Shown: positions 22,601-43,652 of the stretch, piece by piece
Numbering within the stretch: the first letter of the stretch is position 1
Layout of the letters: the number at the start of each line of letters is the position of its first letter
Virus genome (UHGV): UHGV-0122704
DNA from: a virus
Length of the DNA stretch: 43,652 bases
Reading direction: 5' to 3' (one strand)
Program-made: the position numbers and the translations under genes
Notes under the pieces: model-generated
What the model saw: the letters and a program-made list of their open reading frames with translations, nothing else
Told to the model about the DNA's origin: nothing
The model's database searches: none

Positions 22601-23041
22601 ATGAAGTTAAAACACACTAGTAAAACTTCCGACTACACTCTCAGAGTTCTGTATAAGTCTGACGACATTACGGACGCAGTGAAGCAACTGCATGAACTGG
22701 GCCACGGCATTAGTCGGGGCCTGGCTCCAGAGCAGCACTACTGGAGGGTGCTGGGAAGTATACTGGGTAAACAGTATATACTAGGGGTCTATGACTCCCA
22801 AGGCGACTTAGTCGGTGCTGTCAGCTACTACCCAGAGGCTGTAGAGGACTGTCATTACGTAGAGCCTGTGCTGTATACAGACTTCTTCGTATTGAAACCG
22901 GACAACGGCGCGGCAGTGTCTGTGATTATGCAAGGCCTGCGCGCAATAGCCAAATGCATGCGCGCTGGGCGTATAGCCATTAGCCGGAGTACATCGGATA
23001 ACACGTACAAGACAACTTATCATTTAGTGAGGTCAGAATGA
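22601..23041 (+). CDS. Hypothetical protein (146 aa)
   Basis: First ORF after RNAP, immediately downstream of motif copy B. Confidence 0.6.
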   Translation: MKLKHTSKTSDYTLRVLYKSDDITDAVKQLHELGHGISRGLAPEQHYWRVLGSILGKQYILGVYDSQGDLVGAVSYYPEAVEDCHYVEPVLYTDFFVLKPDNGAAVSVIMQGLRAIAKCMRAGRIAISRSTSDNTYKTTYHLVRSE

Positions 23042-23304
23042 GTGGTGGTAATTTAGGTAAGCTGTTAGGTAAGGCCACGGACATGCTCGGCCTTACTGAC
23101 AACGCAGGATTAGAGGCGCAGCAGCGCTTGGCAGAGCAGCAGGCCAGTGCAGCTAAACAACAGGCTGCCTTAGAGGCTAATAGCGCCGCAGATAACATTG
23201 CTGAGATTGACCCCGCAGGGGCTGCCTCTGAATCTGCAGATGCAATTACGTCTGAGCAGAAGAAACGGCGACAAGCAGGGCAGAGCAATCCTCTGGGCCT
23301 GTAA
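23038..23304 (+). CDS. Hypothetical protein (88 aa), Ala/Gln-rich; possible virion-associated protein
   Basis: ATGA overlap with the upstream gene; lies just before the portal gene. Confidence 0.5.
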   Translation: MSGGNLGKLLGKATDMLGLTDNAGLEAQQRLAEQQASAAKQQAALEANSAADNIAEIDPAGAASESADAITSEQKKRRQAGQSNPLGL

Positions 23305-37446: not shown

Positions 37447-38403
37447 ATGGCATACAGCTGGCAAGAACAAATCAAGCCAGCTGGTACCCAGGATATCCAG
37501 TGCGATATTGAATATTTGGACAAGTCCTATATTCATGTATACCTAGACGGTGTGGAAACCACTGGGTACACCTGGACCAGCTCTACTAATATCAGGCTTA
37601 ATTCGGCCTTAGCGGCAAGCACTACTGTGCTACTAATCCGTAAGACAGAGCGAGAGTATCTGTACATTGAGTTCGCCAGTGGTTCTCCGTTCATTGAGGT
37701 AAACGTAGACTCCCAAAACACGCAGTTCCTGCACCTTGCGCAGGAACTAGTGGAGGGCCGGGCTATACCCGGATTCTATGGCGCTATCAGCATGAACGGG
37801 TACCGGATAACCAACTTAGCCAACCCAATCAGTGCCCAAGATGCCGCCACTAAGGCTTATGTAGATGCCGCCGATGCCTTACTAGGACAGCGCATTGACG
37901 CAGAGCATTCGGGGTGGGTATCCGCTGTACAGGCCGAAGCCGTTACACGGAAGGCAGCAGATGACGCGCTGAGTGCCCGTACCTCCGCCTTGGAGAACAC
38001 CTTTATAAGCGGTGTAGAGACGGTAAGCTACCCGTGGAGCACGGTCCTGGCCACTGATACGGACGAAGTAACTCCAGGCTTAGCCTTCACTAAGGCTGTA
38101 GTAGAGGTTAACGGGGTTGGGCAGATTCGTGGCTACAGTTTCGATATTGTAGATAATACCATACTGTTTGCAGAGACCTTACCTGCAGGCACTATTGTAG
38201 CCGCTCGGCTGGGGGTTGATGTAACTGCGGGGGACGGTTTTGCTACGCAAGCATCCCTAGATTACTTAGCCGACTCTTTGGGAGATTTGGCGTATCTGGA
38301 CAAGGCTGCAGCTGTATCCAACGCAACCGGCACCGGGGATGTAGTGGCTAAATTTAACGCACTGCTGGCAGCGCTACGCACCAGTGGGGTGCTGTCTACA
38401 TGA
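37447..38403 (+). CDS. Tail fibre / adaptor protein with T7 gp17-like N-terminal domain
   Basis: MNGYRITNLANPISAQDAATKAYVD parallels T7 gp17 GRRIVNLANAVDDRDAVPFGQL. At 318 aa it is short, consistent with an anchor for a second receptor-binding protein. Confidence 0.8.
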   Translation: MAYSWQEQIKPAGTQDIQCDIEYLDKSYIHVYLDGVETTGYTWTSSTNIRLNSALAASTTVLLIRKTEREYLYIEFASGSPFIEVNVDSQNTQFLHLAQELVEGRAIPGFYGAISMNGYRITNLANPISAQDAATKAYVDAADALLGQRIDAEHSGWVSAVQAEAVTRKAADDALSARTSALENTFISGVETVSYPWSTVLATDTDEVTPGLAFTKAVVEVNGVGQIRGYSFDIVDNTILFAETLPAGTIVAARLGVDVTAGDGFATQASLDYLADSLGDLAYLDKAAAVSNATGTGDVVAKFNALLAALRTSGVLST

Positions 38404-38415
38404 TAGGAGAAGAGC

Positions 38416-38718
38416 ATGGCAGGGGCAGCTAAACGCAGTCGCCTCTCGGAGCTGCACCGTATGTTCACCGAGGCCTTGATTGAAGAAATCAAGCAGTCTA
38501 AGGAAGATGAGGTGCCGCTCCCCGCAGCAGATAAATCGGTCATTGCTAAGTTCTTGAAGGATAACGACATCACCGCGGACGCAGATTCCGAGGAGATGCA
38601 GGACCTTCGTGACGAATTCGATGACGAGCTAGCGGCGCGCAGAGAGGCGCGTAAGCAAGAGATTCTAAATAAAGTTGGTGGTTCAGACTCTGAGGACTTA
38701 CTAGAAGGAATTGTCTAA
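38416..38718 (+). CDS. Terminase small subunit (T7 gp18-like)
   Basis: 100-aa acidic protein directly upstream of the large terminase; RBS AGGAGAAG. Confidence 0.7.
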   Translation: MAGAAKRSRLSELHRMFTEALIEEIKQSKEDEVPLPAADKSVIAKFLKDNDITADADSEEMQDLRDEFDDELAARREARKQEILNKVGGSDSEDLLEGIV

Positions 38719-40574
38719 TGGTATCGGTGAAGACTGCGCGAAGACTGCGCATGCTCAACCAGAAACTTACTGGTTATAGTGCGAATCCGCGCAGTATTCC
38801 CAAAGAGGAGCGCGAGGATATCGCGATGATGATGGCCGCGGCGCTAAGCGACTTCCGGGAATTCGCGTACATCGGTATGCGGTTCCTGGGCTTTACGCTC
38901 ACGGACATGCAGGCCGACATTGCAGAGTACATGCAGAAGGGCCCCCGGAAGCGCATGGTGGCCGCGCAGCGTGGTGAGGCTAAGTCTACACTAGCTGCAC
39001 TGTACGCCGTCTGGAGGCTCATCCAGGACCAATCCTGCCGTATCCTGATTGTGTCCGGTGCAGAGAAGCAGGCGTCCGACGTAGCGAACTTAATCATTCG
39101 TATGATTGAGACATGGCCGCTGCTGTGCTATTTGAAGGCTGATCCTACTCGTGGGGACCGTACTTCATTCGAAGGTTATGACGTACACTGTGACCTCAAG
39201 CCGCTGGAGAAATCCGCCAGCGTAGCCTGTGTAGGTATCACTGCATCCCTGCAGGGTAAGCGCGCGGACCTGCTGATTCCGGATGATATCGAGACCACCA
39301 AGAATGGTTTAACGCAAACCCAGCGTGAGCAGCTGCTGATGATTTCTAAAGACTTCGCGGCTATCTGTACGCACGGGGATACGCTGTACCTGGGTACACC
39401 ACAGACCAAGGACAGTATCTATAAAACCCTGCCGGGACGTGGCTTCGAGGTCCGCGTGTGGCCCGGGCGCATTCCGTCTGTTGAAATGGAAGAGCGATAT
39501 GGAAGTACACTTGCTCCTTATATCCTGGAGCTTATTGAGCGCGGCTATAAACGCACCGGCTTCGGAGTCGACGGAACGCTAGGCGAGAGCACGGACACCG
39601 GGCGCTATGACGAGGATGCGCTGATTGAGAAGGAGCTGGACTTTGGTCCGGAAGGCTTCCAGCTGCAGTACATGCTCGACACCACCCTGTCCGACCAAAT
39701 GCGTACGCGCATCAAGCTATCGGATATGCTGGTTTACTCTGGCAGCCAGGATTCCTCCCCGGAGACGTTCTCCTACATTGCGGACCGCAGGTACCTGTAC
39801 CAGCACGAGCATGAGGGGATTATGGGTCAGCAGATGTACTTCCCGGCATTCTACGGGGACATGCACCTGCCGTACCAGCATAAGGTACTGGTGGTGGACC
39901 CGGCTGGTTGTGGTGGGGACGAAGTGTCCTACGCTGCTGGAGGTGCTGCGAACTCGTACATTCACCTATTCTCCGTAGGCGGATTCCAAGGAGGTATCAG
40001 CGAAGAGAACATTGATAAACTGATTGACCTGTGTGTAGAGTTGGACATCCCGGATATGGTGGTGGAGAGCAATATGGGGCACGGTACCGTGTCTATGCTT
40101 ATCCTGAACCGATTACGTGAGCGGCGTCTCGCCGGTATCGGTGTAAGGGACCTGAATAACTCCACGCAGAAAGAGCGTCGTATCATCGACACAATCAGCC
40201 CAGTTACTCGTCGCCATCGCCTGATAGTGCATGAGCGTGCTATTCACGACGATATCAGTACCTGTATGGCATATTCCCGCGATAGGCGTTGGCTGTACTC
40301 TGCGTTCGCGCAGTTGTCCGGTATCACGTACGACCGCGGTAGCCTTGCGAAGGATGACCGGGCAGACGCAATCGCCATGATGGTGGCTACGCTGAATGGG
40401 CATCTGGTGGAAGATGAGAAAGTGGTGGCTGAGCGTGAGTCTGAGAAGATGGCTCGGGCCTTCATTGAGAACCCACTGGATTGGGCACAGAGCAAAGTGT
40501 CTAAGGGCCTTCGTGGTGTAGCTGCTCGGCTACATAACCGGGGCAGAGGTAAACAACATAGAGGAAGAAGATAA
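38718..40574 (+). CDS. Terminase large subunit (T7 gp19-like)
   Basis: 618 aa at the gp19 position; call is by synteny and size. Confidence 0.8.
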   Translation: MVSVKTARRLRMLNQKLTGYSANPRSIPKEEREDIAMMMAAALSDFREFAYIGMRFLGFTLTDMQADIAEYMQKGPRKRMVAAQRGEAKSTLAALYAVWRLIQDQSCRILIVSGAEKQASDVANLIIRMIETWPLLCYLKADPTRGDRTSFEGYDVHCDLKPLEKSASVACVGITASLQGKRADLLIPDDIETTKNGLTQTQREQLLMISKDFAAICTHGDTLYLGTPQTKDSIYKTLPGRGFEVRVWPGRIPSVEMEERYGSTLAPYILELIERGYKRTGFGVDGTLGESTDTGRYDEDALIEKELDFGPEGFQLQYMLDTTLSDQMRTRIKLSDMLVYSGSQDSSPETFSYIADRRYLYQHEHEGIMGQQMYFPAFYGDMHLPYQHKVLVVDPAGCGGDEVSYAAGGAANSYIHLFSVGGFQGGISEENIDKLIDLCVELDIPDMVVESNMGHGTVSMLILNRLRERRLAGIGVRDLNNSTQKERRIIDTISPVTRRHRLIVHERAIHDDISTCMAYSRDRRWLYSAFAQLSGITYDRGSLAKDDRADAIAMMVATLNGHLVEDEKVVAERESEKMARAFIENPLDWAQSKVSKGLRGVAARLHNRGRGKQHRGRR

Positions 40575-40948
40575 TGGCATCAATCATCGCAGCTAAAACT
40601 GCGGACGTCCAGTACGCCATTGTAGGCACGTGCCAGAACCTGGAGAAGCAGGTGCAGCCGGACTACAACGTAGGCTTCGTAGGTACGACTGCCCTGACTA
40701 AGCTGAACGCGTTCTTCACGTACATGCAGTCCCAGGGCTATACGGCTACCCGTGCCGGTACAGCCTTTAAGGATGACGGTACGCTGCAGGCGCGCCTGTT
40801 CAGCATGCTGTCACAGCTCTCTAAGACCGGCTACGTTGCCCTTACAGGTACAGGTATGCCGCTCGGTGAGGGCTCCGGTACAGCGTTTGATGATTCGTTC
40901 ACTGCACTGCAGAGTGCATTCGTAGCCGCCACTGATGCGGCAGAATAA
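40574..40948 (+). CDS. Hypothetical protein (124 aa)
   Basis: Start overlaps the terminase stop; soluble Thr/Ala/Gly-rich protein. Confidence 0.55.
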   Translation: MASIIAAKTADVQYAIVGTCQNLEKQVQPDYNVGFVGTTALTKLNAFFTYMQSQGYTATRAGTAFKDDGTLQARLFSMLSQLSKTGYVALTGTGMPLGEGSGTAFDDSFTALQSAFVAATDAAE

Positions 40949-40959
40949 GGAGAGTACAC

Positions 40960-41142
40960 ATGGCAATTGCAAAAGCAACCTCAGCGCAACAGCAGGAGCT
41001 GTTGCGTCAGCTGAACATTCTCGGTAAGGACCTGTATGCTATCCTTACGCAGCCGCAGAACGTGGCCCAGACTGGTGCTGCCTTCGATACCAAGATTGCT
41101 GCGCTTGAAGCCGCGGTGGCCGCAGTGGAGGCTGCTAGCTAA
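40960..41142 (+). CDS. Hypothetical protein (60 aa)
   Basis: RBS AAGGAGAG; Ala/Gln-rich, helical. Confidence 0.5.
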   Translation: MAIAKATSAQQQELLRQLNILGKDLYAILTQPQNVAQTGAAFDTKIAALEAAVAAVEAAS

Positions 41143-41546
41143 TGCGTAAACTGGTCGCTGGGTTGCTGCTCGCGGTTACTCTGACTGGTTGCTCGGCGAC
41201 CTCTGCACTCACCGGCTTAGTTGGTTCTAAGCCGGATGTATCTGCTCAGGTTGGTGCCGAGAACACCAAACAAACCGTTGGCTTGAATAACAAGGTGGAC
41301 TCCAGCACCACCAACAAAACTGATGTACAGGATTCTAACGTAGGCACTTTGGACACGTCCAGTAAGAAGCAGGTGCAAACTATTAGCACCGGGACAATCC
41401 AGGCAGAACGCCTGCAGGTGGTTAACAATGATAGTTACAGTCTTATCCTCGCCGGATTAGCTGGGGCCAGTATTCCTCTGGTCTTCCTAGTGGTCATTCT
41501 GGTGATTCGTAAGCTGTTCAGGAAGAAGGGGCAGCAGGATGATTAA
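41142..41546 (+). CDS. Putative unimolecular spanin (N-terminal lipoprotein signal + C-terminal TMD)
   Basis: N-terminus MRKLVAGLLLAVTLTGCS has a signal peptide with lipobox LTGC; C-terminus LILAGLAGASIPLVFLVVILVIRKLFRKK is a TM helix with a basic tail. Sits in the lysis cassette. Confidence 0.7.
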   Translation: MRKLVAGLLLAVTLTGCSATSALTGLVGSKPDVSAQVGAENTKQTVGLNNKVDSSTTNKTDVQDSNVGTLDTSSKKQVQTISTGTIQAERLQVVNNDSYSLILAGLAGASIPLVFLVVILVIRKLFRKKGQQDD

Positions 41547-41790
41547 GGTGGGAGACATGGTTGGAGCAGACATCGCTACCCGGGCAGGTGCAGCAGTTAC
41601 CGGCGCTACGGTATCAGGAGGTTGGTTGGCAGAGTTAATGAGCTGGAACTGGAGCACTATCAGCTTCATCACTGCGACGGTGTGCGCAGTGTTAACCCTG
41701 GCGTGGAATGCGTATTACAAGCGACGTACATTCAAGCTCCTAGAGGAGCAGGCACGTAAGGGGACTATTAAATATGAGTTTAAGGACTAA
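41539..41790 (+). CDS. Holin (two predicted TMDs; pinholin-like)
   Basis: 83 aa with two hydrophobic segments (AAVTGATVSGGWLAELM and STISFITATVCAVLTLAWNAYY) and a charged C-terminus; immediately upstream of the endolysin. Alternative start ATG 41557. Confidence 0.7.
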   Translation: MIKVGDMVGADIATRAGAAVTGATVSGGWLAELMSWNWSTISFITATVCAVLTLAWNAYYKRRTFKLLEEQARKGTIKYEFKD

Positions 41791-42382
41791 GGTTGTGGCG
41801 GCCCTTACGGGGGCCACCATGCTCGGCGGCGCTATCACTGGAGTGATTAAGCATAACGAAGGTCTAAGCCTCCCCGCCTATAGGGACAGTGCCGGTGTCC
41901 CTACCATCTGCTATGGCGAGACAAAGGGCGTCAAGATGGGCCAGAGAGCCACGCTGAGCGATTGTCAGAAGCAACTGATACAATCAGCAGGGGAACACGC
42001 AAAAGCCCTTGACGGGCTTCCTATGCAGCTCTCTGATGTAGCTCTGGTTGGGTCTATAGACTTTATTTATAACGTAGGAGTAGCTGGCTTCAACGGCAGC
42101 TCCGTGAAGCGGCATCTCAAGAACCTGGATTACGCAGCAGCTGGAAAGGCCGTACTGGACTGGCGCTATATTAGCAAGTACCAGCAGAAATCCCCGGGCA
42201 TCGGTTGGGTGTACAAGGGTAGCAACCGCTGGACCTTCGACTGTTCTCAGTATATTAACGGGCAGCGCAATAAAGTGTGCTGGGGCCTATGGGGGCGCAG
42301 ACAGTGGCAGAGCAAGGCCATTGGGAATCAGTATAAGAATGTAAATGCTGCGGTGGCAGCTCTTACTAAGACCGGAGGATAA
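41774..42382 (+). CDS. Endolysin, GH24 (T4-lysozyme-like) muramidase with N-terminal SAR domain
   Basis: Gly/Ala-rich weakly hydrophobic N-terminus VVAALTGATMLGGAITGVI followed by catalytic E-x8-D-x5-T (NEGLSLPAYRDSAGVPTICYGET). Confidence 0.85.
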   Translation: MSLRTKVVAALTGATMLGGAITGVIKHNEGLSLPAYRDSAGVPTICYGETKGVKMGQRATLSDCQKQLIQSAGEHAKALDGLPMQLSDVALVGSIDFIYNVGVAGFNGSSVKRHLKNLDYAAAGKAVLDWRYISKYQQKSPGIGWVYKGSNRWTFDCSQYINGQRNKVCWGLWGRRQWQSKAIGNQYKNVNAAVAALTKTGG

Positions 42383-43652
42383 ATGGCGTTAATTAGATTA
42401 GTAGCTCCAGAGCGGGTATTCTCCGACTTGGCGAGCATGGTAGCATATCCAAACTTTCAGGTGCAGGACAAGATTATCCTACTGGGCAGTGGTGGTGGGG
42501 ATTTCACCTTTACTACTGCTGCGTCGGTAGTAGATAACGGGACTGTGTTTGCTGTGCCCGGTGGGTATCTGCTCCGTAAATTCACGGGCCCGGCATACAG
42601 CTCCTGGTTCAGCAATTGGGCAGGCATAGTCACGTTCATGAGCGCGCCTAATAGGCACCTGGTTGTGGACACAGTCCTGCAGGCCACGAGTGTGCTCAAC
42701 ATCAAAAGCAACTCTACGCTAGAGTTTACCGATACCGGAAGAATCCTACCGGACGCTGCGGTTGCGCGTCAGGTGCTTAATATTATCGGCGCGGCACCAT
42801 CGGCGTTCGTACCGTTAGCGGCGGACGCTGCGGCGGGCAGCAAAGTCATTACGGTGGCTGCTGGTGCTTTGTCTGTGGTAAAAGGTACGTACTTGTATCT
42901 TCGCTCTAACAAGCTATGCGACGGTGGGCCTAACACCTACGGGGTAAAGATTTCCCAGATTAGGAAAGTGGTGGGTGTTAGCACCTCCGGTGGCGTCACC
43001 AGCATTCGGCTGGATAAAGCGCTGCACTATAACTACTACCTGTCTGATGCTGCGGAAGTAGGTATCCCGACAATGGTGGAGAACGTAACCTTAGTATCCC
43101 CGTACATCAACGAGTTCGGCTACGACGATTTGAACCGGTTCTTTACTATCGGTATCTCTGCCAACTTTGCCGCGGACTTGCACATCCAGGACGGGGTTAT
43201 TATTGGCAACAAACGCCCAGGGGCTTCTGATATAGAAGGGCGTAGCGCTATCAAGTTCAATAACTGCGTAGACAGCACCGTTAAGGGTACGTACTTCTAC
43301 AACATCGGATGGTACGGGGTAGAGGTGCTCGGCTGCTCAGAGGACACGGAAGTACACGATATCCACGCTATGGACGTACGCCACGCAATCTCTTTGAACT
43401 GGCAGAGCACTGCAGACGGGGACAAGTGGGGAGAGCCTATCGAGTTCTTAGGCGTTAACTGCGAAGCCTACAGCACAACCCATGCTGGATTTGATACTCA
43501 CGACATTGGTAAGCGTGTGAAGTTCGTTCGCTGCGTTTCGTACGACAGTGCTGACGATGGGTTCCAAGCGCGCACTAACGGGGTAGAGTACTTGAACTGT
43601 CGAGCTTACCGTGCAGCTCTGGACGGGTTCGCCTCCAACACCGGTGTAGCCT
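42383..43652 (+). CDS. Tailspike / putative capsule depolymerase, N-terminal part (3'-truncated by window end; probably continues at 1..686)
   Basis: ATG 42383 directly after the endolysin stop; no stop codon before the window end. N-terminus lacks a T7 gp17-like adaptor domain. Confidence 0.75.
   Translation, partial: MALIRLVAPERVFSDLASMVAYPNFQVQDKIILLGSGGGDFTFTTAASVVDNGTVFAVPGGYLLRKFTGPAYSSWFSNWAGIVTFMSAPNRHLVVDTVLQATSVLNIKSNSTLEFTDTGRILPDAAVARQVLNIIGAAPSAFVPLAADAAAGSKVITVAAGALSVVKGTYLYLRSNKLCDGGPNTYGVKISQIRKVVGVSTSGGVTSIRLDKALHYNYYLSDAAEVGIPTMVENVTLVSPYINEFGYDDLNRFFTIGISANFAADLHIQDGVIIGNKRPGASDIEGRSAIKFNNCVDSTVKGTYFYNIGWYGVEVLGCSEDTEVHDIHAMDVRHAISLNWQSTADGDKWGEPIEFLGVNCEAYSTTHAGFDTHDIGKRVKFVRCVSYDSADDGFQARTNGVEYLNCRAYRAALDGFASNTGVA

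What the first reader, a model, noticed from the sequence alone, without database searches (positions are those of the whole stretch)
41142..42382. Compact lysis cassette: spanin-like lipoprotein with a C-terminal TMD, two-TMD holin and SAR endolysin
Gene 41142..41546 has a lipoprotein signal (lipobox LTGC) and a C-terminal TM helix with a basic tail. That is the topology of a unimolecular spanin rather than a nested two-component pair, and I found no embedded lipoprotein ORF. The next gene is a small two-TMD holin and the endolysin has a Gly/Ala-rich SAR N-terminus with the E-x8-D-x5-T catalytic motif. The three genes overlap at their ends, suggesting translational coupling.
Basis: partly seen in the sequence, partly recalled or inferred. 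Interest (0 to 1): 0.6.

Follow-up and report, generated by a model that had tools for sequence, protein, structure and literature searches.

The report
Known KP34-type phage lysis cassette
These three overlapping genes are the standard host-lysis module (single-protein spanin, small holin, membrane-tethered lysozyme) of KP34-like Klebsiella phages; the same module was described in 2015-2018, so the reading is correct but ordinary.

Summary
The window is a circularly permuted, complete genome of a Drulisvirus (a KP34-like Klebsiella podophage). The three genes are 41142-41546, 41539-41790 and 41774-42382. Their products are 99%, 98% and 92% identical to KP34 gp54, gp55 and gp56.

- **Published descriptions.** Eriksson et al. 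2015 describe exactly this cassette: u-spanin, then holin, then SAR endolysin. Kongari et al. 2018 place the KP34, F19 and NTUH-K2044-K1-1 spanins in the phage T1 gp11 unimolecular-spanin family.
- **Spanin.** I confirmed the lipobox LTGC (Cys17), Ser at +2, no periplasmic Cys, a C-terminal TMD and a basic tail. It is 42% identical to T1 gp11 (E=3e-26).
- **No second spanin.** No other credible lipoprotein ORF occurs anywhere in the window.
- **Endolysin.** It has the E29-x8-D38-x5-T44 triad. Its best solved relative is the phage 21 SAR endolysin R21, and the alignment includes the SAR segment.
- **Overlaps.** The 8-nt and 17-nt overlaps are conserved in 58/58 and 54/57 relatives.
- **Holin.** "Two-TMD holin" needs a nuance. 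There is one strong TMD plus a weakly hydrophobic Gly/Ala-rich N-terminal segment, about as hydrophobic as the releasable TMD1 of pinholin S21. Sequence membership in the S21 family is marginal.

No function was tested here.

The parts
41142..41546 (+). Unimolecular spanin (u-spanin) gene, 134 aa, of the T1 gp11 family and the KP34 gp54 type.
   Evidence: ORF. phrog_1804, E=6e-52. 42% identical to T1 gp11, E=3e-26. 99% identical to KP34 gp54.
41142..41192 (+). Lipoprotein signal peptide of the u-spanin. It ends in the lipobox LTGC (41181-41192). The lipidated Cys17 is followed by Ser at +2, which is taken as an outer-membrane sorting signal.
   Evidence: Pfam LPAM_1 scores 20.3 bits against a cut-off of 20. 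The L(S/T)GCS motif is invariant in 7 homologues, including T1 gp11.
41442..41543 (+). C-terminal inner-membrane TMD of the u-spanin (residues 101-122), followed by the basic cytoplasmic tail RKLFRKKGQQDD.
   Evidence: Kyte-Doolittle 19-residue mean up to 2.66. Summed dGapp is -0.9 to -1.5.
41539..41790 (+). Holin gene, 83 aa, a probable S21-like pinholin. Residues 16-34 (41584-41640) form a weakly hydrophobic Gly/Ala-rich segment. Residues 38-60 (41650-41718) form TMD2. The C-tail is basic (8 K/R against 4 D/E).
   Evidence: Pfam PF04971, 26.6 bits against a gathering score of 26. phrog_20, E=5e-17. Hydrophobicity matches S21 TMD1 and TMD2. hhalign against S21 gives 53% probability. 98% identical to KP34 gp55.
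41774..42382 (+). SAR endolysin gene, 202 aa, an R21-type lysozyme. N-terminus MSLRTK. The SAR segment is residues 7-25 (41792-41848). The catalytic residues are E29 (41858-41860), D38 (41885-41887) and T44 (41903-41905).
   Evidence: Pfam Phage_lysozyme, E=2e-20. The best PDB hits, 3HDE (R21) and 4ZPU (RrrD), align from residue 2. The triad is invariant in the alignment. 92% identical to KP34 gp56.
41539..41546 (+). 8-nt overlap between the spanin stop and the holin start (ATGATTAA).
   Evidence: The same 8-nt overlap occurs in 58/58 IMG/VR relatives.
41774..41790 (+). 17-nt overlap between the holin 3' end and the endolysin start.
   Evidence: A 17-nt overlap occurs in 54/57 relatives.
40960..41142 (+). 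Context only: a conserved 60-aa helical protein of unknown function (the KP34 gp53 position). Its stop overlaps the spanin ATG (TAATG). It has no TMD and there is no evidence that it takes part in lysis.
   Evidence: phrog_7375, E=1e-38, function unknown..

Best explanation
This is the late-expressed three-step lysis module of a KP34-like (Drulisvirus) Klebsiella phage. It is co-transcribed with the packaging and tailspike genes.

**Inferred mechanism, by homology with phage 21 and T1**
1. The endolysin is exported by Sec. It stays tethered to the inner membrane, inactive, through its weakly hydrophobic Gly/Ala-rich N-terminal SAR helix.
2. The 83-aa holin accumulates in the inner membrane. 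At a programmed time it forms small holes that collapse the proton-motive force.
3. Depolarisation lets the SAR helix leave the bilayer. The lysozyme (E29/D38/T44) refolds to its active form and degrades the peptidoglycan.
4. The u-spanin is lipid-anchored in the outer membrane through Cys17 and anchored in the inner membrane by its C-terminal TMD. Once the peptidoglycan mesh is removed it is free to oligomerise and fuse or disrupt the two membranes, releasing virions.

**Shown here**
- Gene structure and motifs.
- Homology to the validated prototypes.
- Absence of a two-component spanin.
- Conservation of gene order and overlaps.

**Inferred, not shown**
- Every functional step.
- The pinhole (rather than large-hole) nature of the holin.
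- Translational coupling.
For: **Identity with the described cassette**
- The products are 99%, 98% and 92% identical to KP34 gp54, gp55 and gp56.
- The cassette is 94-96% identical in nucleotides to more than 200 Drulisvirus genomes annotated 'Rz-like spanin/U-spanin | holin | endolysin'.

**Spanin**
- 42% identical to T1 gp11, E=3e-26, from the lipobox to the TMD.
- No periplasmic Cys, as reported for all 58 u-spanins surveyed (PMC6139136).
- It is the only credible lipobox ORF in the window.

**Endolysin**
- R21 (3HDE) and RrrD (4ZPU) are the top solved relatives, and both alignments include the SAR region.
- The triad is conserved.
- The SAR segment contains no Cys, which makes it R21-type rather than P1 Lyz-type.

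**Holin**
- Pfam P21 holin S family scores above its gathering score.
- Summed dGapp is 5.7-6.6 for segment 1, against 6.2-6.4 for S21 TMD1. It is 0.2-1.3 for TMD2, against 0.2-1.0 for S21 TMD2.
- The S21 sequence used was verified as 100% identical to Escherichia phage 21.

**Conservation and literature**
- The gene order spanin-holin-endolysin is conserved in Drulisvirus, Koutsourovirus, Bucovirus and Kotilavirus. The overlaps are conserved.
- The literature states the same model for this genus (PMC4411677; PMC6115819; PMC10194101).
- All but two members of the T1 gp11 family sit in pinholin-SAR endolysin cassettes (PMC6139136).
Against: - I found no experiment on any Drulisvirus lysis protein in the searched literature. 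Function rests on homology to T1 gp11, R21 and S21.
- Holin-S21 homology is marginal. Pfam is 0.6 bits above its threshold. hhalign probability is 53% over 39 columns that cover only the loop and TMD2. BLASTP gives 31% identity over 35 aa.
- Holin segment 1 has only about 16 uncharged residues between R15 and E31. Published predictors call one TMD.
- The AF2 single-sequence model of the spanin was uninformative in the periplasmic domain, with pLDDT below 50.
- The spacing of the spanin and endolysin Shine-Dalgarno sequences is rather long, about 10 nt.
Confidence: 0.9

Rival explanations
1. The same cassette, but the holin is not an S21-like two-TMD pinholin with a releasable TMD1. Instead it is a single-TMD, N-out/C-in holin whose roughly 35-residue N-terminal segment is periplasmic from the start. 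It may or may not form pinholes.
For: - Only one segment passes usual TMD thresholds.
- Segment 1 has R15 and E31 flanking about 16 weak residues.
- Published TMHMM, Phobius and TOPCONS predictions give one TMD with a non-cytoplasmic N-terminus.
- The S21 similarity does not extend over TMD1.
Against: - Segment 1 is about as hydrophobic as the experimentally established S21 TMD1, which the same predictors would also miss.
- A Gly/Ala/Ser-rich segment is kept at the same position in divergent homologues (Buco, Koutsourovirus, T1 gp13) although its sequence drifts.
- The released state of S21 has this same N-out topology, so the end state is identical.
Confidence: 0.3
2. The endolysin N-terminus is a cleavable Sec signal peptide, or a permanent signal anchor, rather than a signal-anchor-release domain. 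Holin control would then differ from the phage 21 model.
For: - The JKP2 paper reports that a signal peptide was predicted in the orthologous endolysin.
- I could not run SignalP.
Against: - The hydrophobic stretch is 58% Gly/Ala/Thr and aligns with the R21 SAR domain in the 3HDE match.
- There is no clear A-x-A cleavage motif.
- The catalytic Glu lies only 4 residues after the stretch. This matches SAR endolysins, where the released helix becomes part of the catalytic domain.
- The stretch is conserved in all relatives.
Confidence: 0.07
3. The lipoprotein with a C-terminal TMD is not a lysis protein. It would instead be, for example, a superinfection-exclusion or receptor-blocking lipoprotein, and the phage would disrupt the outer membrane another way.
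For: - No direct experiment exists on the Drulisvirus protein.
- Phage lipoproteins with other roles exist (my own knowledge, e.g. T5 Llp).
Against: - It is 42% identical to functionally validated T1 gp11 over the whole length.
- It keeps a conserved position abutting the holin and endolysin in four genera.
- No other spanin candidate exists in the window.
- Its dual-membrane topology is what defines u-spanins (PMC6139136).
Confidence: 0.03

Closest known systems
Klebsiella phage KP34 lysis cassette gp54-gp55-gp56 (genus Drulisvirus, formerly 'Kp34likevirus'; Eriksson et al. 2015, PMC4411677).
   Same: - Same gene order (u-spanin, holin, SAR endolysin) and same protein lengths (134, 83 and 202 aa).
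- 99%, 98% and 92% protein identity.
- Same position between the terminase/small genes and the tailspike.
   Different: - Only point differences.
- In the window the upstream 60-aa gene abuts the spanin (TAATG), whereas KP34 annotates a shorter gp53 followed by a 22-nt gap.
- Holin residue 7 is Met here and Thr in KP34.
- The tailspike is K1-type rather than the KP34 depolymerase.
Phage T1 lysis cassette gp13 (holin), gp12 (endolysin) and gp11 (prototype u-spanin).
   Same: - All three proteins show detectable similarity: spanin 42% identity, E=3e-26; endolysin 28%, E=5e-14; holin 34% over 35 aa, E=5e-6.
- The lipobox L(S/T)GCS, the AQVGAENTKQ motif and the C-terminal TMD are shared.
   Different: - The gene order is rotated. 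T1 has holin-endolysin-spanin; here the spanin comes first.
- The host phage is a siphovirus rather than a podovirus.
- The endolysin here has an extra insertion of about 30 aa with a Cys pair.
Phage 21 pinholin S21 and SAR endolysin R21.
   Same: - The endolysin aligns with R21, including the SAR segment and the E-D-T triad.
- The holin reaches the Pfam P21 holin S gathering score.
- The holin has the same pattern of one weak and one strong hydrophobic segment.
   Different: - Phage 21 uses an embedded two-component spanin (Rz/Rz1).
- The S21 dual-start motif (S21 71/68) is not conserved here.
- Holin similarity is marginal and limited to the loop and TMD2.
Pseudomonas phage phiKMV lysis cassette (pinholin, SAR endolysin, Rz, Rz1).
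   Same: Same phage family (Autographiviridae) and the same pinholin/SAR endolysin logic (PMC4411677).
   Different: - phiKMV has a two-component spanin and the order holin-endolysin-Rz/Rz1.
- It has low sequence similarity to the KP34 cassette, about 30% over 22% coverage according to PMC4411677.

Membership tests
T1 gp11 family of unimolecular spanins (Kongari et al. 2018) | [quoted passage not shown] | tested here: met
   MRKLVAGLLLAVTLTGC followed by S. Pfam LPAM_1 scores above its cut-off. It aligns with LSGC-S of gp11.
T1 gp11 family of unimolecular spanins (Kongari et al. 2018) | C-terminal transmembrane domain that anchors the protein in the inner membrane. | tested here: met
   Residues 101-122, with summed dGapp of -0.9 to -1.5, followed by a basic tail.
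T1 gp11 family of unimolecular spanins (Kongari et al. 2018) | At least 40% identity over at least 40% of the length to a family member (the paper's clustering threshold). | tested here: met
   - 42% identity over 125 of 134 residues to T1 gp11 itself.
- 99% identity to the listed member KP34.
T1 gp11 family of unimolecular spanins (Kongari et al. 2018) | No Cys in the periplasmic domain. | tested here: met
   0 Cys in residues 18-100. The feature is stated in PMC6139136.
T1 gp11 family of unimolecular spanins (Kongari et al. 2018) | Periplasmic domain predicted to be a short helix followed by four or more beta-strands. | tested here: inconclusive
   The AF2 single-sequence model has mean pLDDT 57.5, below 50 across residues 32-89, and no strands were called. 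I built no MSA-based model.
T1 gp11 family of unimolecular spanins (Kongari et al. 2018) | Complements a lambda RzRz1 lysis defect (outer-membrane disruption). | not testable with these tools
   Shown for T1 gp11 only (PMC6139136). I found no experiment on a Drulisvirus protein.
SAR endolysins, R21 type (T4-lysozyme-like fold, GH24) | Lysozyme domain with the catalytic triad E-x8-(D/C)-x5-T. | tested here: met
   - Pfam PF00959, E=2e-20.
- E29, D38 and T44 are present, invariant in the alignment, and aligned to the R21 triad region.
SAR endolysins, R21 type (T4-lysozyme-like fold, GH24) | N-terminal basic residues followed by a weakly hydrophobic TMD rich in Gly/Ala/Ser/Thr, immediately before the catalytic Glu. 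| tested here: met
   - R4 and K6 are followed by a 19-residue stretch with 11 of 19 G/A/T, and then E29.
- Summed dGapp is 1.6-2.3, weaker than a normal anchor such as the spanin TMD.
SAR endolysins, R21 type (T4-lysozyme-like fold, GH24) | No Cys in the SAR domain, meaning steric rather than disulfide-caging regulation. | tested here: met
   The SAR stretch VVAALTGATMLGGAITGVI has no Cys, and the middle triad position is Asp rather than Cys. The distinction from the P1 Lyz type rests on my own knowledge of the literature.
SAR endolysins, R21 type (T4-lysozyme-like fold, GH24) | Sec-dependent export, membrane tethering, and pmf-dependent release and activation. | not testable with these tools
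   Inferred from R21 (PMC6139136).
S21-type pinholins (Pfam PF04971, Phage_holin_2_1; class II holins) | Sequence match to the family model at or above the curated threshold. | tested here: inconclusive
   - 26.6 bits against a gathering score of 26, covering profile positions 21-60 only.
- hhalign probability 53%.
- BLASTP 31% identity over 35 aa.
- No NCBIfam hit.
S21-type pinholins (Pfam PF04971, Phage_holin_2_1; class II holins) | Two TMDs: a weakly hydrophobic, releasable TMD1 and a hole-lining TMD2, followed by a basic C-tail. | tested here: inconclusive
   - The hydrophobicity pattern equals that of S21, and the C-tail is basic.
- Segment 1 has only about 16 uncharged residues, and standard predictors report one TMD.
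S21-type pinholins (Pfam PF04971, Phage_holin_2_1; class II holins) | Dual-start motif giving a holin and an antiholin. | tested here: not met
   A second ATG at codon 7 with a strong Shine-Dalgarno sequence exists in the window. Across 58 relatives, however, codon 7 is ATG in 33, GTG in 14 and a non-start codon in 11, and it is Thr in KP34.
S21-type pinholins (Pfam PF04971, Phage_holin_2_1; class II holins) | Forms small (about 2 nm) holes that depolarise the membrane but do not release a cytoplasmic endolysin. | not testable with these tools
   Inferred only from the association with a SAR endolysin.

The most novel reading that the evidence does not exclude
The most novel reading not excluded is that the holin is not a true S21-type pinholin. 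It would be a distinct single-TMD, N-out holin class shared by KP34-like podophages and T1-like siphophages (T1 gp13). In this reading the rotated, overlapping order spanin-holin-endolysin enforces translational coupling that sets the spanin:holin:endolysin ratio.

In some lineages, including this one, an internal start at codon 7 (ATG with a strong Shine-Dalgarno sequence) would add a holin/antiholin pair. This would be a modest refinement of a known system, not a new one.
Probability: 0.15. Interest if true: 0.25.

Novelty: already known. Interest (0 to 1): 0.08.

Why it matters
It matters little for discovery. The cassette is a defining, published feature of the genus Drulisvirus and its relatives, and it is routinely annotated in hundreds of genomes.

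Its practical value is annotation. The three genes can be named with confidence as a T1 gp11-family u-spanin, a putative pinholin and an R21-type SAR endolysin.

The general open questions lie outside this window. How u-spanins fuse membranes without coiled coils or disulfides is still mechanistically unresolved (PMC7830690). I found no experimental test of any Drulisvirus lysis protein, so a cloned KP34-type cassette would be a convenient compact model. That opportunity is already evident from the literature.

Tried and rejected
1. **Search for a hidden two-component spanin.** I scanned every start codon in six frames for a lipobox after a basic, hydrophobic N-terminus. Only the u-spanin and one antisense ORF (22980-23198, minus strand, inside a + strand gene) were found, and I rejected the latter as spurious. 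The upstream 124-aa and 60-aa proteins have no TMD. The 124-aa protein is unrelated to PP16 orf53, which is annotated 'Rz-like'.
2. **Dual-start holin/antiholin idea** (ATG at 41557 preceded by AAGGTGGGAG). Rejected as a conserved feature: 11 of 58 relatives have a non-start codon there, and KP34 has Thr.
3. **AF2 single-sequence model of the u-spanin**, run to test for a beta-rich periplasmic domain. Confidence was low and the result uninformative. I ran no further search on an MSA, because the answer would not change the verdict.
4. **Sigma-70 promoter and intrinsic terminator scan of 38000-43652.** Counts were at shuffle expectation and no + strand terminator lies inside the cassette. This is uninformative for a phage that uses its own RNA polymerase.
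5. **NCBIfam.** Only sub-threshold hits: spanin2_3 at 22 bits against 80, BgtA endolysin at 43 against 315, and none for the holin.
6. **tRNA scan.** None found.
7. **Literature search for experiments on Drulisvirus lysis proteins.** Only in-silico descriptions were found.
Full report
**What is there.**

- 41142-41546, 134 aa.
- 41539-41790, 83 aa.
- 41774-42382, 202 aa.

The overlaps are as follows:
- The spanin stop and the holin start overlap by 8 nt (ATGATTAA).
- The holin 3' end and the endolysin start overlap by 17 nt.
- The 60-aa gene upstream shares one base with the spanin start (TAATG).

Each start codon is preceded by a purine-rich Shine-Dalgarno-like run inside the 3' end of the upstream gene. 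Minus-strand ORFs across the region are all under 62 aa. They lie antisense to a genome in which the ORFs I could assign all read on the + strand.

**Identity of the window.**

The 1.6-kb region is 94-96% identical in nucleotides to more than 200 Klebsiella phage genomes of the genus Drulisvirus (Autographiviridae, Slopekvirinae). In those genomes the genes are annotated 'Rz-like spanin' or 'U-spanin', 'holin' and 'endolysin'.

The three proteins are 99%, 98% and 92% identical to gp54, gp55 and gp56 of the type phage KP34.

The window itself is a circularly permuted complete genome:
- The tailspike ORF starts at 42383, runs off the end of the window and continues at 3-686. The joined ORF is 651 aa.
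- The junction is contiguous in related genomes.

**Spanin.**

The sequence features are as follows:
- The N-terminus MRKLVAGLLLAVTLTGC is a lipoprotein signal with lipobox LTGC. Pfam LPAM_1 scores just above its cut-off.
- Ser follows the Cys at +2. By established Lol-sorting rules this predicts an outer-membrane location.
- The 83-residue periplasmic part has no Cys.
- Residues 101-122 are a strongly hydrophobic TMD, followed by RKLFRKKGQQDD.

Homology is clear:
- It matches phrog_1804 'Rz-like spanin' at E=6e-52.
- It is 42% identical (E=3e-26) to T1 gp11 from the lipobox to the TMD. The two share L(S/T)GCS and the motif AQVGAENTKQ.
- T1 gp11 is the experimentally validated prototype u-spanin and complements lambda RzRz1. 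KP34, F19 and NTUH-K2044-K1-1 are explicitly listed in its family (PMC6139136).

A scan of every start codon in all six frames of the whole window found no other credible lipoprotein ORF. There is therefore no hidden o-spanin and no nested pair.

**Endolysin.**

- Pfam Phage_lysozyme matches at E=2e-20.
- The N-terminus has R4 and K6, then a 19-residue stretch with 11 Gly/Ala/Thr and no Cys. The catalytic Glu follows four residues later.
- E29-x8-D38-x5-T44 is present and invariant in seven aligned homologues.
- The best solved relatives are full-length R21 of phage 21 (3HDE) and RrrD (4ZPU). Both alignments begin at residue 2, so they cover the SAR segment.

This is an R21-type SAR endolysin by sequence. 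Export, tethering and release are inferred, not shown.

**Holin.**

- Pfam's P21 holin S family (PF04971) is reached at 26.6 bits against a gathering score of 26, covering the loop, TMD2 and the start of the tail.
- hhalign of a seven-member alignment against S21 gives only 53% probability.
- BLASTP against S21 gives 31% identity over 35 aa.
- Only residues 38-60 are strongly hydrophobic.

I also summed a biological hydrophobicity scale over 17- and 19-residue windows. The scale values were entered from memory, so this comparison is relative only.

| Segment | This holin | S21 |
|---|---|---|
| Segment 1 / TMD1 | 5.7-6.6 (residues 16-34, AGAAVTGATVSGGWLAELM) | 6.2-6.4 |
| TMD2 | 0.2-1.3 | 0.2-1.0 |

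I verified the S21 sequence used as 100% identical to Escherichia phage 21.

Divergent relatives keep a Gly/Ala/Ser-rich segment in the same place. These include Koutsourovirus, Bucovirus (once the mis-called Buco start is extended) and T1 gp13.

The 'two-TMD' description is therefore reasonable in the S21 sense. Published annotations count one TMD, and the question cannot be settled in silico. A possible second start at codon 7 is not conserved.

**Conservation of architecture.**

- The order spanin-holin-endolysin, placed after the terminase genes and one or two small genes and before the tailspike, is found in Drulisvirus, Koutsourovirus, Bucovirus and Kotilavirus.
- In 58 IMG/VR relatives the 8-nt overlap is invariant, and the 17-nt overlap is present in 54 of 57.
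- All three proteins also show detectable similarity to the T1 cassette. The module is therefore a T1-type cassette with the spanin gene rotated to the front.

**Mechanism (inferred).**

1. The SAR endolysin is exported by Sec and held inactive on the inner membrane.
2. The holin triggers and depolarises the membrane.
3. The SAR helix is released, the enzyme refolds, and the murein is degraded.
4. The u-spanin, now freed from the peptidoglycan mesh, fuses or disrupts the inner and outer membranes.

This is the model published for phage 21 and T1 (PMC6139136; PMC7830690). It has been applied in print to this very genus (PMC4411677; PMC6115819; PMC10194101).

**Novelty and verdict.**

The cassette, its gene order, the u-spanin assignment, the SAR endolysin, the pinholin inference and even the overlaps are all in the literature for proteins that are 92-99% identical.

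- I found no experimental test of the Drulisvirus proteins, so functional steps remain inferences from the prototypes.
- Interest is low, at 0.08.
- The only loose end with any novelty potential is the true topology and class of the holin.

Noticed in passing
window 42383-43652 joined to 1-686: The window is a circularly permuted complete phage genome.
- The tailspike/depolymerase ORF starts at 42383, directly after the endolysin stop. It runs off the end of the window and continues at 3-686, giving a joined ORF of 651 aa.
- It is about 95.6% identical in nucleotides to tailspikes of phages grown on K1 hosts, for example KP_NC6 on NTUH-K2044.
   Followed up: yes
window 41557-41559 (holin codon 7) with upstream AAGGTGGGAG at 41543-41552: An in-frame ATG with a strong Shine-Dalgarno sequence could give a 77-aa product in addition to the 83-aa one, as a holin/antiholin-like dual start. 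In 58 relatives codon 7 is ATG in 33, GTG in 14 and a non-start codon in 11, and it is Thr in KP34. If it is used at all, it is lineage-specific.
   Followed up: partly
window 42182-42283 (endolysin residues ~137-170): Compared with R21 and T1 gp12, the endolysin carries an insertion of about 30 residues. It contains a Cys pair (C157, C169) that is conserved in the Slopekvirinae and Corkvirinae relatives aligned. This could be a periplasmic disulfide, but its function is unknown.
   Followed up: no
window 40574-40948 and 40960-41142: Two conserved small proteins of unknown function (phrog_7128 and phrog_7375; the KP34 gp52/gp53 positions) lie between the large terminase and the spanin. Neither has a TMD. 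The 60-aa gene's stop overlaps the spanin ATG here, whereas KP34 is annotated with a shorter gene and a gap.
   Followed up: partly
L006 (Shigella phage Buco, MK562503.1) 2151-2396: The annotated 57-aa 'putative holin' appears truncated at its 5' end. An in-frame upstream ATG gives an 81-aa protein with a Gly/Ala/Ser-rich N-terminal segment like the other family members.
   Followed up: partly
window 41142-42382 compared with L003 (phage T1) 4879-5983: All three lysis proteins of this podophage show detectable similarity to the T1 siphophage cassette (gp11, gp13, gp12). The gene order is rotated, which suggests exchange of the whole module between unrelated phage families.
   Followed up: partly
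window 22980-23198, minus strand: This is the only other ORF in the window with a lipobox-like N-terminus. It is Cys/Ala-rich and lies antisense inside a + strand gene, so it is almost certainly spurious.
   Followed up: no
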